NCBI GenBank assembly: GCA_964562405.1
Contig: CAZLTC010000006.1
Coordinates: forward strand, 1,372 to 65,371
Length of the DNA stretch: 64,000 nucleotides
DNA from: an uncultured bacterium
Lineage (GTDB): Bacteria; Joyebacterota; Joyebacteria; Joyebacterales; Joyebacteraceae
Reading direction: 5' to 3'
Numbering within the stretch: position 1 is the first letter of the stretch; each line of letters opens with the position of its first letter. Below, in pieces: positions 59,539 through 61,740 of the stretch. The notes beneath the pieces were generated by a model. The model saw only the letters and a list, made by a program, of their open reading frames with translations, did no database searches and was not told the origin of the DNA. The translations under genes and the position numbers were made by a program.

Positions 59539-61740
59539 ATGAGAACTCGTGTGGTCCTCACCGCGGCCCTGCTCCTGCTGTCCGCGGCAACTGCACACGC
59601 GCACTGGGACCAGAGCATGCCCGCCAAGTGGGTACAGCTTCCCGACCTCGCGCCCACTGGCATGGACGTGAACTGCACGGAGGCATACCCGTCTTACATC
59701 CTGGCGGACGACTTCCTCTGCACGGAGACAGGGCTCATAACCGACATACACATCTGGGGTTCGTGGTATCACGACGTGTATCCGGACGGCAACCCCGGTT
59801 GGGTCTCGTTCACCCTGAGCATTCACTCCGACATCCCGGCGTCGGAGAGCCCGACCGGCTATAGCATGCCGGGCAATGTGCTCTGGATACAGCAGTTCCA
59901 GGCAGGCAGCTTCACGTATCAGCTGTGGCAGGGAGACCTCCAGGAGGGCTGGTTCGAGCCACCGGATTCCTACGACCCGATGGGCGATACCGCCTGCTGG
60001 CAGTACAACTTCCACATTGACGACCCGGAGATGGCCTTCGAGCAGCTCGGAACGGAGGAGAACCCGAAGGTCTACTGGCTTGATGTCCAGGCTAACGTGC
60101 CTGATCCGCAGTGCTGGTTCGGTTGGAAGACCTCGCCCGACCACTGGAACGACGACGCGGTGTACGGTCAGGGATTCGAGCCCTACTACGGACCGTGGTA
60201 CGAGCTCAGGTATCCACCGCTCCATCCGAACTACCCGGAGTCGGTCGACCTCGCGTTCGTGATCGCAGGCGAGGAAGAGGAGGAGACAGAGGACTACGGT
60301 GACGCTCCCGACCCGACCTATCCGACACTGGCCGCCAATTCCGGCGCGTCCCACACGATCGTTCCCGGCTTCCAGCTTGGTCAACTCATCGACGCCGAGC
60401 CGGACGGACAGCCGGACCCGAACGCGCAGGGCGACGACATGAGCAATCTCCCTGACGAGGACGGCGTCATCTGGACGTCGCCTCTCATCGCGGGCTCGAT
60501 CGCTTCGGTGCAGGTCGACATGACCATGTCGGGCGGCGGCATGCTGGATGCCTGGATAGACTTCGGGGGCGATGGGAGCTGGGCCGAGTCTGTCGACCGC
60601 ATCTTCACGTCGATGCCTCTGGCCGGCGGCGTCATGAACAATCTCAACTTCACGGTTCCGGTCACCGCAATCCCCGGTCCGACGTTCGCGCGATTCCGGC
60701 TGAGCCAGAACGGCGTGACCTCCTACACCGGATCGGCGCCGGACGGGGAGGTAGAGGATTACCCCATAGTCATAGAGGGTGAGGAGTGGAAGTGGTTCCA
60801 GGCCCCCGACCTCGATAACACCGGCATCGACATCAACGGCACCGAGCCGCTCATCCTTGCTGACGACTACCTCTGCACGGCCCCCGGCCGGCTGACCGAG
60901 ATGTACGTCTGGGGGTCGTGGAAGGACGACTACCTGCCGCTCGGTGTGCCGTCCGCGGTCGACTTCACGGTGAGCATCCACGAGGACATACCGGCCGATA
61001 CCCTGACGGGCGAGCACAGCAGGCCTGGCGACGTTCTCTGGTTCAGGGACTTCACCGCGGGTGAGTTCACGGTCGACCTGTGGCAGGACGAGTTGAGCGA
61101 GGGCTGGATGACACCGCCCGACGACTACTACTTCCCAGGCGACAGCATTTGCTGGCTCTACACGTTCTTCGTGCCGCCGGCGGAGGCGTTCCATCAGGTC
61201 GGCACGCCGGACTCCGGTGTCGTCTACTGGCTCGACATTCAGGCCAGGCCCCACGTCCAGGAGGCGGTCTGGGGATGGAAGACGTCCCTCGACCACTGGA
61301 ACGACGACTCCGTGTGGGGCGTCGGAGCGGAACCGTACTTCGGCCCGTGGAGTGAGCTGCGCTACCCACCCCAGCACGCGCTCGCGGACCAGTCGATCGA
61401 TCTGGCATTCGGCCTGCGCATGACCTACGGCACGGGCGTGCCCGACGAGATGCGGACGGAGGACTACCGTCTGAGGCAGAACGCGCCCAACCCGTTCAAC
61501 CCTGAGACGACCATCCGCTACGACGTCCCGGCGGGCGGAGGGCATGTCACGATCGAGATCTACGACGTGGCCGGCCGGCTCGTCCGGACGCTGGTCGACG
61601 AGCCCAAGGCCGAGGGAGAGAAGAGCGTGGAGTGGGACGGCCGCGACGGCTCCGGCAACCAGATGGCCACCGGCGTCTACTTCTACCGAATGGCGGCGCC
61701 GGGAGTCGAGGCGAGCCGCAAGATGCTGCTTCTGAAATAG
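59539..61740 (+). CDS. Secreted protein with two tandem copies of an uncharacterised ~230-aa domain flanking a GEVED-motif domain, with shared C-terminal sorting domain
   Basis: Signal MRTRVVLTAALLLLSAATAHA. Repeat 1 residues ~25-245 and repeat 2 ~415-640 share W.QxPDLxxTG.D.N.TEP.ILADD.LCT...WGSW...SIH.DIPA..PG.VLW...F.AG.FT..LWQ..L.EGW..PPD.Y...GD..CW.Y.F...AF.Q.GT...VYWLD.QA..WGWKTS.DHWNDD...G.G.EPY.GPW.ELRYPP. The middle region DYGDAPDPTYPT...DGEVEDYP. C-terminus QNAPNPFNPETTIRYDVP...IYDVAGRLVRTL...GVYFYRM...KMLLLK. Confidence 0.75.
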   Translation: MRTRVVLTAALLLLSAATAHAHWDQSMPAKWVQLPDLAPTGMDVNCTEAYPSYILADDFLCTETGLITDIHIWGSWYHDVYPDGNPGWVSFTLSIHSDIPASESPTGYSMPGNVLWIQQFQAGSFTYQLWQGDLQEGWFEPPDSYDPMGDTACWQYNFHIDDPEMAFEQLGTEENPKVYWLDVQANVPDPQCWFGWKTSPDHWNDDAVYGQGFEPYYGPWYELRYPPLHPNYPESVDLAFVIAGEEEEETEDYGDAPDPTYPTLAANSGASHTIVPGFQLGQLIDAEPDGQPDPNAQGDDMSNLPDEDGVIWTSPLIAGSIASVQVDMTMSGGGMLDAWIDFGGDGSWAESVDRIFTSMPLAGGVMNNLNFTVPVTAIPGPTFARFRLSQNGVTSYTGSAPDGEVEDYPIVIEGEEWKWFQAPDLDNTGIDINGTEPLILADDYLCTAPGRLTEMYVWGSWKDDYLPLGVPSAVDFTVSIHEDIPADTLTGEHSRPGDVLWFRDFTAGEFTVDLWQDELSEGWMTPPDDYYFPGDSICWLYTFFVPPAEAFHQVGTPDSGVVYWLDIQARPHVQEAVWGWKTSLDHWNDDSVWGVGAEPYFGPWSELRYPPQHALADQSIDLAFGLRMTYGTGVPDEMRTEDYRLRQNAPNPFNPETTIRYDVPAGGGHVTIEIYDVAGRLVRTLVDEPKAEGEKSVEWDGRDGSGNQMATGVYFYRMAAPGVEASRKMLLLK

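What the first reader, a model, noticed from the sequence alone, without database searches (positions are those of the whole stretch)
59539..61740. Internal tandem duplication of an undescribed ~230-aa domain around a GEVED-motif module
Residues ~25-245 and ~415-640 are clearly homologous. I estimate ~40% identity by eye, with long colinear motifs: ILADD[FY]LCT, WGSW, SIH[SE]DIPA, PG[ND]VLW, LWQ[GD][DE]L[QS]EGW, PPD[SD]Y, CW[QL]Y[NT]F, VYWLD[VI]QA, WGWKTS.DHWNDD, EPY[YF]GPW[YS]ELRYPP. The central DYGDAPDPTYPT...DEDGV...DGEVEDYP segment resembles the GEVED-type domain often seen on CTD-tagged surface proteins. I do not recognise the duplicated domain as any characterised family. It is rich in invariant Trp and has one conserved Cys pair, which is compatible with a carbohydrate- or ligand-binding beta-sandwich. 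The gene has its own extended -10 promoter, a 250-nt GC-hairpin-rich leader and a strong terminator.
Basis: seen in the sequence. Interest (0 to 1): 0.7.

Follow-up and report, generated by a model that had tools for sequence, protein, structure and literature searches.

The report
Two-lectin-module secreted surface protein (DUF7901)
The gene encodes a secreted, probably cell-surface protein with two copies of a Trp-rich jelly-roll module already catalogued as Pfam DUF7901, separated by an Ig-like GEVED spacer; it belongs to a large but unstudied family of adhesin-like proteins and is not a one-off novelty.

Summary
ORF 59539-61740 (733 aa) contains two homologous ~220-aa domains (aa 26-250 and 414-634) that are 51% identical (E=1e-75). 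They flank a GEVED-containing module, and the protein ends in a FlgD_ig/T9SS-type C-terminal sorting domain.

The domain is not undescribed. Both copies match Pfam PF25470 (DUF7901) at 298 bits. It remains uncharacterised, with no papers and no solved relative.

The arrangement is not a private duplication. About 3,400 cluster representatives carry DUF7901. In Eisenbacteria, Krumholzibacteriota and related MAGs it alternates with the ~160-aa GEVED module in arrays of 1 to at least 7 copies, usually ending in the same CTD. In Planctomycetota it is mostly a single domain with a PEP-CTERM tag. The N/C duplication predates ortholog divergence.

Best reading: a multivalent, non-catalytic binding protein or adhesin displayed on the cell surface, ligand unknown. 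The promoter and terminator are conserved in an ortholog. The "structured leader" is not supported. Moderate to low interest.

The parts
59280..59288 (+). Extended -10 promoter element TGGTATAAT (TG-n-TATAAT)
   Evidence: Read directly. The block TGGTATAA is conserved in the orthologous intergenic region of L001, while the flanking DNA has diverged. The consensus scan found no -35/-10 pair, so the -35 element is undefined.
59295..59538 (+). ~245-nt 5' leader; Shine-Dalgarno GGGGGGAGAGAG at 59527-59538
   Evidence: The fold energy is no better than shuffles (z=+0.56) and there is no Rfam hit. Short blocks are conserved with L001 (GCCAAC 59295-300, TGCATGTGG 59323-31, CCGAGAGGAGG 59415-25, and the RBS). 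Function of these blocks is unknown.
59539..61740 (+). CDS, 733 aa, very acidic (115 D+E vs 31 K+R), 32 Trp
   Evidence: GC3 0.86 vs GC2 0.45 marks this as the coding frame. The 889-aa antisense ORF 59242-61911 is a high-GC artefact. The identical protein P0121 is present in NCBI-derived data.
59539..59601 (+). Sec signal peptide, aa 1-21 (MRTRVVLTAALLLLSAATAHA|HW)
   Evidence: The sequence shows a basic n-region, a hydrophobic core and an AxA site. The same layout is in the L001 ortholog (…VTASA|HW). No dedicated predictor was run.
59614..60288 (+). DUF7901 copy 1 (aa 26-250): jelly-roll beta-sandwich
60292..60771 (+). GEVED module (aa 252-411): Asp-rich loop region (DYGDAP…DEDGV) plus a 7-strand Ig-like sandwich ending in DGEVEDY. 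The Pfam GEVED model covers only aa 336-410.
60778..61440 (+). DUF7901 copy 2 (aa 414-634)
   Evidence: Second PF25470 stretch. Envelope 414-634 at 345 bits. 51% identical to copy 1. It keeps the family's conserved residues; only H71, Q155 and N157 of the N type are relaxed.
61486..61737 (+). C-terminal sorting domain (aa ~650-733), FlgD_ig / T9SS type-A-like, ending KMLLLK
   Evidence: PF13860 48.3 bits (cutoff 27). TIGR04183 23.2 bits (cutoff 23). PF18962 21.4 bits (cutoff 27, not reached). The same ~85-aa tail ends seven ORFs in the window, including an amylase and C1 and C25 peptidases.
61778..61810 (+). Intrinsic terminator: CGCCCCGTGC-TTCG-GCACGGGGCG followed by TTTCTCATT
   Evidence: Read. 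The scan lists the same site in another register (61784-61802). The hairpin region is conserved in L001.

Best explanation
The gene encodes a Sec-exported protein that is probably passed across the outer membrane and attached to the cell surface through its FlgD_ig/T9SS-type C-terminal domain. That domain is this organism's general tag for secreted proteins. The mature protein is a string of three rigid beta-sandwich modules: DUF7901, then an Ig-like GEVED module, then a second DUF7901. Each DUF7901 is a Trp-rich jelly roll of the lectin/CBM/phage-receptor-binding type and is the binding unit. The acidic, probably Ca2+-stabilised GEVED module acts as a spacer or stalk. Two binding modules, and up to about eight in paralogs elsewhere, would give multivalent and therefore avid attachment to a repetitive ligand, most likely a polysaccharide or another cell-surface polymer. 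In other words it acts as a non-catalytic adhesin or surface lectin.

Shown here: the domain architecture, the folds (as predictions), the modular shuffling, the ancient duplication, the shared CTD, and the absence of catalytic partner domains.

Inferred: export route, surface display, binding function, Ca2+ dependence and the nature of the ligand.
For: Domain calls: DUF7901 x2, GEVED, FlgD_ig CTD.

Modularity: in 79 related loci DUF7901 and the GEVED module alternate in arrays that usually end in the CTD. Among 372 family proteins the number of full-length DUF7901 copies ranges from 1 to 6 by my own domain HMM, and Pfam or profile matches count up to 7-8 stretches per protein.

Partner domains are only sorting tags (PEP-CTERM, CTD, dockerin) and Ig-like/HYR/PPC stalk domains, never a convincing enzyme.

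Literature: GEVED was defined as the obligate downstream partner of the ligand-binding NR2 domain at the tips of fibrillar adhesins (PMC10952558).

CTD: it is shared by 7 ORFs in the window, including an amylase and C1 and C25 peptidases.

Both DUF7901 copies keep 90 identically conserved columns, so both are likely functional.
Against: No binding has been measured for any DUF7901 protein, and there is no literature.

Structural similarity is at the fold level only: ≤14% identity, Foldseek TM ≤0.45 and nothing at E≤1e-3. Jelly rolls also serve purely structural roles, for example in viral capsids.

The family is unusually conserved for an adhesin: ~50% identity between Planctomycetota and Eisenbacteria copies. 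There are about 10 near-invariant polar residues and a 99%-conserved Cys that is often unpaired. That could indicate chemistry rather than simple binding.

T9SS membership of the CTD is marginal on the curated models, and no T9SS machinery gene was seen in the window.

Confidence: 0.55

Rival explanations
1. Structural coat protein. DUF7901 jelly rolls mediate protein-protein self-assembly, as in viral capsid, penton and baseplate jelly rolls. They would build a surface layer or matrix scaffold rather than binding an external ligand.
Against: Variable-length arrays interleaved with Ig-like spacers are typical of adhesins and lectin arrays, not of lattice-forming proteins. Dockerin-tagged versions suggest a cargo module. 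There is no evidence of oligomerisation.
Confidence: 0.15
2. DUF7901 is a new catalytic or covalently reactive domain. Examples would be a polysaccharide-modifying enzyme, or a domain forming an intramolecular or target-directed Cys-Gln, Lys-Asp or Ser-Gln cross-link built on the near-invariant C61, Q169, K197, D205, D237, S75 and S109.
For: C61 is Cys in 781 of 787 domain instances, while its presumed disulfide partner is Cys in only 59%, and 105 domains have C61 as their only Cys. There are about ten polar residues conserved at 91% or more. Conservation is high for an extracellular binding module.
Against: In this protein and in 49-54 of 54 orthologs the partner Cys is present, so C61 is most simply half of a disulfide. 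The partner position is otherwise aliphatic, which suggests a buried core contact. No His is family-wide conserved: H71 is relaxed in C-type copies. There is no match to thioester (TED) or any enzyme family at E≤1. The fold matches are to non-catalytic modules.
Confidence: 0.1
3. Dedicated accessory of the neighbouring secreted C25 (gingipain-like) peptidase. It would be a substrate-capture or anchoring partner that functions together with gene 54274-59058.
For: The two genes are adjacent, on the same strand and carry the same CTD. The pair is conserved in the L001 ortholog.
Against: Apart from L001, only L005 among the 79 related loci has any further C25 match (24% identity), and the rest match only the shared CTD. 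No neighbour family occurs in more than 5 loci. The gene has its own conserved promoter element and a ~480-nt intergenic gap.
Confidence: 0.08

Closest known systems
Pfam PF25470 (DUF7901) family proteins, annotated in NCBI as 'GEVED domain-containing protein', 'T9SS type A sorting domain-containing protein' or 'FlgD immunoglobulin-like domain containing protein' (e.g. MFH1501934.1, Ca. Eisenbacteria)
   Same: Identical architecture (signal peptide, DUF7901, GEVED, DUF7901, CTD). The L001/P0131 ortholog is 71% identical over the full length, with the same flanking genes.
   Different: Nothing substantive. This is another ortholog. The family itself has no assigned function.
CshA/CshB-type fibrillar adhesins of Streptococcus (NR2 ligand-binding domain + GEVED), Barringer et al. 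2023, PMC10952558
   Same: [quoted passage not shown] Domain shuffling generates many architectures.
   Different: The binding module is DUF7901 (jelly roll), not an NR2/PAD domain, and there is no Pfam cross-hit. The anchor is a FlgD_ig/T9SS-like CTD or PEP-CTERM rather than LPXTG. The binding module is itself repeated along the chain instead of sitting only at the tip. The hosts are diderm FCB/PVC lineages.
Galactose-binding-domain-like jelly rolls: CBM6/35/36, the CBM-like domain of acetylxylan esterases (7tog, 7tok), the Cwp84 lectin-like domain (4ci7), PHR domains
   Different: Only 6-10% identity, with no sequence-profile relationship. DUF7901 is larger (~220 aa against ~130). It is not attached to CAZyme catalytic modules; one doubtful GH26 fragment is the only exception.
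Phage receptor-binding/structural jelly rolls (phi812 baseplate DUF4815 protein 9euf, Bxb1 tail spike gp29 9d93, PBCV-1 P1v1 8h2i)
   Different: 8-14% identity, TM ≤0.45, no PHROG hit. The cellular gene sits in a chromosomal housekeeping context next to the dcw cluster.

Membership tests
Pfam PF25470 DUF7901 | Score above the curated gathering threshold (24 bits) on the family HMM | tested here: met
   298.2 bits, E=4.9e-89, two stretches, best 30-242 covering model positions 2-204 of 205.
Pfam PF20009 GEVED | Score above gathering threshold (24.4 bits) and presence of the GEVED motif near the domain's C-terminus | tested here: met
   48 bits at aa 336-410. DGEVEDY at aa 402-408.
T9SS type A C-terminal sorting domain (TIGR04183 / PF18962) | Score above the curated cutoffs of the CTD models | tested here: inconclusive
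   TIGR04183 23.2 bits against cutoff 23, which barely passes. PF18962 21.4 bits against 27, which fails. The related PF13860 FlgD_ig model passes at 48.3 against 27.
T9SS type A C-terminal sorting domain (TIGR04183 / PF18962) | Genome encodes the T9SS translocon and attachment machinery (SprA/Sov, PorK-N, PorV, PorU sortase), and the CTD is cleaved on export | not testable with these tools
   Only a 64-kb window was available. No T9SS core gene is among the ORFs scanned. The upstream C25 peptidase scores 78 bits against a cutoff of 420 on the PorU model, so it is not a PorU equivalog. Indirect support: 7 window ORFs, mostly hydrolases, share the tail.
Fibrillar/modular adhesin (signal peptide + binding domain + repeated stalk domains + C-terminal anchor; Monzon/Barringer criteria as cited in PMC10952558) | N-terminal signal peptide and C-terminal anchoring or sorting domain | tested here: met
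   Signal-peptide-like N-terminus with an AHA|H site. CTD present.
Fibrillar/modular adhesin (signal peptide + binding domain + repeated stalk domains + C-terminal anchor; Monzon/Barringer criteria as cited in PMC10952558) | Repeated stalk domains | tested here: inconclusive
   This protein has a single Ig-like GEVED module. Relatives have up to 9 GEVED modules and Big_13/Big_3_3 repeats.
Fibrillar/modular adhesin (signal peptide + binding domain + repeated stalk domains + C-terminal anchor; Monzon/Barringer criteria as cited in PMC10952558) | Demonstrated binding to a surface or ligand | not testable with these tools
   No experimental data exist for any DUF7901 protein.
Carbohydrate-binding module (CAZy sense) | Beta-sandwich/jelly-roll fold similar to known CBMs | tested here: met
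Carbohydrate-binding module (CAZy sense) | Occurs as a contiguous module within carbohydrate-active enzymes | tested here: not met
   Among the ~400 family proteins inspected, partner domains are sorting tags and Ig-like domains only. One GH26 fusion (P0051) sits on a 1.1-kb contig with both domains truncated.
Carbohydrate-binding module (CAZy sense) | Sequence membership in an existing CBM family | tested here: not met
   No CBM family hit in Pfam at E≤1. No PDB sequence-profile hit at E≤10.
Thioester (TED) / intramolecular cross-link adhesin domains | Conserved Cys and Gln (or Lys/Asp) positioned to form the bond, and a TED family match | tested here: inconclusive
   C61 (99%) and Q169 (98%) are near-invariant. 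There is no TED Pfam match. Their spatial proximity could not be checked because no coordinates are provided. C61 has a Cys partner in this protein.

The most novel reading that the evidence does not exclude
DUF7901 is not a passive lectin. It would be a new kind of reactive adhesion module for diderm FCB/PVC bacteria. Its 99%-invariant cysteine is unpaired in about 40% of family members. Together with the near-invariant Gln169, Lys197 and Asp residues it would form a thioester- or isopeptide-type bond, either internally for mechanical stability or covalently to the target, analogous to Gram-positive TED and isopeptide domains but on an unrelated jelly-roll scaffold.
Probability: 0.06. Interest if true: 0.7.

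Novelty: new member of a known kind. Interest (0 to 1): 0.3.

Why it matters
This gene by itself matters little. It is one ortholog in a catalogued family, and identical and near-identical proteins are already deposited.

The family is more interesting. DUF7901 has about 3,400 cluster representatives and no solved structure, no literature and no known ligand. It is unusually conserved across phyla. It is deployed on at least three different sorting systems: T9SS-like CTD, PEP-CTERM/exosortase and dockerin. It is arrayed with GEVED modules in giant surface proteins of poorly known lineages (Eisenbacteria, Krumholzibacteriota, Phycisphaerae).

Identifying its ligand would annotate thousands of "hypothetical" surface proteins. 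It would also extend the "binding module + GEVED" design, described so far for Gram-positive fibrillar adhesins, to diderm environmental bacteria.

Tried and rejected
- LPMO-like idea. The mature N-terminus would begin with His (AHA|HW), as in the LPMO histidine brace. Rejected because the family consensus after the signal peptide is A-x-A-D-W, not His, and internal copies cannot have an N-terminal His.
- Riboswitch or structured leader. No Rfam hit for the leader; the only match in the scanned region is a sub-threshold RAGATH-23 hit at the 3' end, 24.6 against 92.6 bits. Fold z=+0.56.
- Operon with the C25 peptidase or the dcw genes. Synteny holds only in the closest relative, L001. No recurrent neighbour family across the 79 loci; the maximum is 5 loci.
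- Upstream C25 peptidase as the PorU sortase. It scores 78 bits against a cutoff of 420.
- Sequence links to solved structures (0 hits at E≤10), to phage families (0 PHROGs) and to other Pfam families. All negative.
- Literature. 'DUF7901' returned 0 papers. 'Eisenbacteria' + 'type IX secretion' returned 0. 'FlgD Ig-like' + 'T9SS' returned 0.
- AFDB fold search. The library was unavailable.
- The look-up of encoding contigs for the exact protein. Not on record.
- Recent private duplication. Rejected: 47 of 50 N and C domains have their nearest neighbour at the same position type, and the NJ tree nearly separates N from C.
- Degenerate second copy. Rejected: 90 shared conserved columns.
- CBM attached to enzymes. 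No convincing catalytic partners.
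Full report
**1. Observation**

The window has about 64-65% GC throughout. The + strand ORF 59539-61740 encodes 733 aa. Its GC3 of 0.86 against GC2 of 0.45 marks it as the real coding frame, so the longer antisense ORF 59242-61911 is a high-GC artefact.

BLASTP of the N-terminal 260 aa against aa 401-660 gives one colinear alignment of 239 columns, with 51% identity, 63% positives and E=1e-75. A domain HMM built from orthologs places the two copies at aa 26-250 and 414-634, each at about 345 bits. 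The only deviation is WGWKTS, which reads FGWKTS in the N copy. The DYGDAP…DEDGV…DGEVEDY segment lies between the copies.

**2. Identity of the parts**

Pfam assigns both repeats to PF25470 (DUF7901) at 298 bits against a cutoff of 24. It also assigns aa 336-410 to GEVED (PF20009, 48 bits) and aa 657-720 to FlgD_ig (PF13860, 48 bits). The T9SS CTD models are borderline: TIGR04183 scores 23.2 against 23, and PF18962 scores 21.4 against 27.

So the repeat is catalogued, but only as a domain of unknown function. A full-text search for "DUF7901" returns no paper. A profile search of PDB sequences returns nothing at E≤10.

The N-terminus (MRTRVVLTAALLLLSAATAHA|HW) has the features of a Sec signal peptide. 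The protein is very acidic (115 D+E against 31 K+R) and contains 32 Trp.

**3. How common the domain and the architecture are**

- A word-indexed search with copy 1 finds 726 homologs. A full HMMER scan of 1.84 billion cluster representatives finds 3,365 proteins at E≤1e-3 and 1,683 at E≤1e-30. Top hits carry 2-8 matched DUF7901 stretches, and lengths reach 4,031 aa.
- The exact protein (P0121) is already in NCBI-derived data on a 67.9-kb contig.
- Dozens of orthologs of about 725-740 aa have the same domain set. Where they are named at all, the names are "GEVED domain-containing", "T9SS type A sorting domain-containing" or "FlgD immunoglobulin-like domain containing" protein, mostly from Candidatus Eisenbacteria.
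- A scan of one genome per species finds 489 loci. The nearest are in Ca. Eisenbacteria MAGs (L001, 73% identity). Others are in Krumholzibacteriota, Gemmatimonadota, Phycisphaerae/Planctomycetota, Armatimonadota and Bacteroidales bins. Some MAGs have at least 6 paralogs.
- L001 carries a full-length ortholog (71% identity over 733 aa) with the same neighbours: C25 peptidase upstream, and mraZ, a STAS gene and rsmH downstream. The window therefore most likely comes from an Eisenbacteria-like genome.

**4. The architecture is modular, not a private duplication**

I mapped the window's four parts onto the + strand ORFs of the 79 fetched loci.
- DUF-GEVED-DUF-CTD occurs in 24 loci.
- DUF-G-G-DUF-CTD occurs in 8 loci.
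- DUF-G-DUF-G-DUF-CTD occurs in 6 loci.
- Longer arrays reach 6 DUF7901 and 8 GEVED modules in a still-truncated ORF of more than 2,669 aa (L021).
- Two loci have DUF-DUF-CTD with no GEVED.

The whole ~160-aa middle segment (aa 252-411) behaves as one cassette, although the Pfam GEVED model covers only its last 78 residues. Among 372 family proteins, my own domain HMM counts full-length DUF7901 copies as 1 (124 proteins), 2 (144), 3 (62), 4 (24), 5 (15) and 6 (3).

In Planctomycetota the typical member is a 255-300-aa protein with a signal peptide, one DUF7901 and a PEP-CTERM tag. A few carry dockerins. It is a free-standing extracellular module attached to whichever sorting tag the lineage uses.

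**5. Age of the duplication**

Across 25 DUF-GEVED-DUF-CTD proteins, mean identity is 61.6% for N against N, 59.6% for C against C, and 56.3% for N against C. In 47 of 50 domains the nearest neighbour is at the same position type, and an NJ tree nearly separates N from C. The exceptions are L041, whose N and C copies are sisters, and L068_C and L044_C. They indicate occasional re-duplication or shuffling.

The duplication is thus older than the divergence of these orthologs. Both types keep 90 columns conserved at 80% or more with the same residue. Only H71, Q155 and N157 are N-type specific. Neither copy looks degenerate.

**6. Structure**

AlphaFold2 on an 80-sequence alignment gives a very confident all-β model for copy 1: pLDDT 95.3, pTM 0.91, about 15 strands.

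All are at 14% identity or less. Foldseek finds nothing at E≤1e-3, and the best TM-scores are 0.42-0.45, to the same viral proteins. PHROGs gives no sequence hit. DUF7901 is therefore a distinct, larger elaboration of the galactose-binding-like/viral jelly roll, with no close solved relative.

**7. Context**

- The same ~85-aa C-terminal domain ends seven ORFs in this 64-kb window. Its motifs are NPFNP-T-I, DV-GR-VR-L, WDG-D-G, SGVYFYR and KM-LLK. The seven include an α-amylase, a papain-like C1 peptidase, the 1,594-aa C25 peptidase immediately upstream and several unknowns. This is the strongest evidence here that the tail is a general export and attachment tag. Whether the machinery is a bona fide T9SS could not be tested.
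- The upstream C25 peptidase is not a PorU equivalog. It scores 78 bits against a cutoff of 420.
- Apart from L001, only L005 has any further C25 match (24% identity, upstream of its DUF7901 gene), and the other loci match only the shared CTD. No other neighbour family recurs in more than 5 of 79 loci. The gene is not part of a conserved operon.
- More distant DUF7901 proteins with long unexplained regions contain only Big_13, Big_3_3, HYR-like, PPC, Ig and dockerin domains, and no enzymes. The single GH26 fusion (P0051) is on a 1.1-kb contig with both domains truncated, so it is doubtful.

**8. Regulation**

- TGGTATAAT at 59280-59288 is a TGnTATAAT extended -10. The block is conserved in L001 within otherwise diverged intergenic DNA, as are the RBS and start codon.
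- The consensus scan finds no -35/-10 pair.
- The ~245-nt leader folds no better than shuffles (z=+0.56) and has no Rfam match. A few short blocks are conserved with L001, function unknown.
- A 10-bp GC stem with a TTCG loop and a T-rich tail lies at 61778-61810, 38 nt after the stop codon, and is conserved.
The "hairpin-rich leader" is simply GC content.

**9. Mechanism**

The best-supported reading is a Sec-exported, CTD-sorted surface protein. Two jelly-roll DUF7901 modules are held apart by an Ig-like, probably Ca2+-stabilised GEVED module, and they bind a repetitive ligand multivalently.

The published description of GEVED supports this. GEVED was defined as the domain that invariably follows the ligand-binding NR2 domain at the tips of fibrillar adhesins, and domain shuffling was identified as the generator of adhesin diversity (PMC10952558). 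Here the same "binding module + GEVED" logic appears with a different binding module, different anchors and different phyla.

Shown: architecture, predicted folds, shuffling, tag sharing and absence of catalytic partners. Inferred: export route, surface display, binding, Ca2+ dependence and ligand class.

**10. Unexplained observation**

Across 787 DUF7901 instances, C61 is Cys in 781 (99%). Its presumed disulfide partner at position 153 is Cys in only 461 (59%) and is otherwise V, I, A, L or M. 105 domains have C61 as their only cysteine. The residues D57, D58, S75, D98, S109, Q169, K197, D205 and D237 are conserved at 91% or more.

Cross-phylum identity of about 50% is high for an adhesin module. 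This leaves room for chemistry, such as a metal site, a cross-link or catalysis. The simplest reading is that C61 packs against a buried position 153.

I could not test spatial proximity, because the tools do not expose model coordinates.

**11. Verdict**

The domain is catalogued (DUF7901) but uncharacterised. The protein is an ordinary member of a sizeable family of modular surface proteins. Novelty class: new member of a known kind. Interest is modest (0.3) and rests on the family's unknown ligand and its odd conservation pattern, not on this locus.

Noticed in passing
window 61993-62109: The mraZ promoter region has TTGACA (61993-98), an 18-nt spacer and TAGGCT (62017-22). These are followed by three GTGGG direct repeats at 62031, 62041 and 62051 (10-nt period), with another at 62000. 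The region is almost identical in the L001 ortholog. It looks like the MraZ autoregulatory operator known from E. coli (from my own knowledge). The true mraZ start is probably the ATG at 62107 (MRRFLG…), not the GTG at 62041 listed by the ORF finder.
   Followed up: partly
window 62611-62970 (+): A 119-aa STAS-domain (anti-sigma-antagonist-like) gene lies between mraZ and rsmH at the head of the dcw cluster. It is conserved at 70% identity in L001. This is an unusual insertion at that position.
   Followed up: partly
window 5670-8585, 8660-9901, 15871-18360(-), 18756-20735(-), 33739-36273, 54274-59058, 59539-61740: Seven ORFs in 64 kb end in the same ~85-aa FlgD_ig-type C-terminal domain. They include an alpha-amylase/CBM48 enzyme, a papain-like C1 peptidase and a C25 peptidase. 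This is a dense set of tagged secreted proteins, which suggests an extracellular degradative lifestyle.
   Followed up: partly
window 54274-59058 (+): A 1,594-aa gingipain-like protein with a C25 propeptide, a C25 peptidase domain, CarboxypepD_reg/Ig, fn3, an FG-GAP beta-propeller and the CTD. It scores well below the PorU sortase cutoff (78 against 420 bits). The listed TTG start gives no obvious signal peptide, so the true start is probably downstream.
   Followed up: partly
window 61811-61990: A second conserved hairpin with a T-run (AAGGCGCC-TGAG-GGCGCCTT-TTT, 61967-61986) lies just upstream of the mraZ promoter. A conserved block (GGAG.GGGATGGGCG, about 61866-61880) lies between the two terminators. 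This could be a small RNA or a tandem terminator. No Rfam family reaches threshold.
   Followed up: no
window 59295-59425: Short leader blocks are conserved with L001 despite the diverged surroundings: GCCAAC (59295-300), TGCATGTGG (59323-31) and CCGAGAGGAGG (59415-25). They may be regulatory sites. The last resembles a Shine-Dalgarno sequence ~110 nt upstream of the start codon.
   Followed up: no
window 880-1914 and 48326-49438: Two RsgA-type GTPase paralogs occur in the same window (169 and 178 bits on PF03193).
   Followed up: no
DUF7901 family (window aa 61/153; 787 domain instances): C61 is 99% conserved, but its disulfide partner position is Cys in only 59% of domains, and 105 domains have C61 as their sole cysteine. 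The window's N copy also has a second, N-copy-specific Cys pair (C46/C192) that is shared with L001.
   Followed up: partly
L021 (JALGZK010000001.1), L077, L049; P0311 (4,031 aa): These are giant proteins with 5-7 DUF7901 and up to 8 GEVED modules in strictly alternating arrays. L021 and L077 are still truncated by the fetched locus. Some MAGs (Meg19_46_Bin_182, AB_69_Bin_103) hold at least 6 separate DUF7901 loci.
   Followed up: partly
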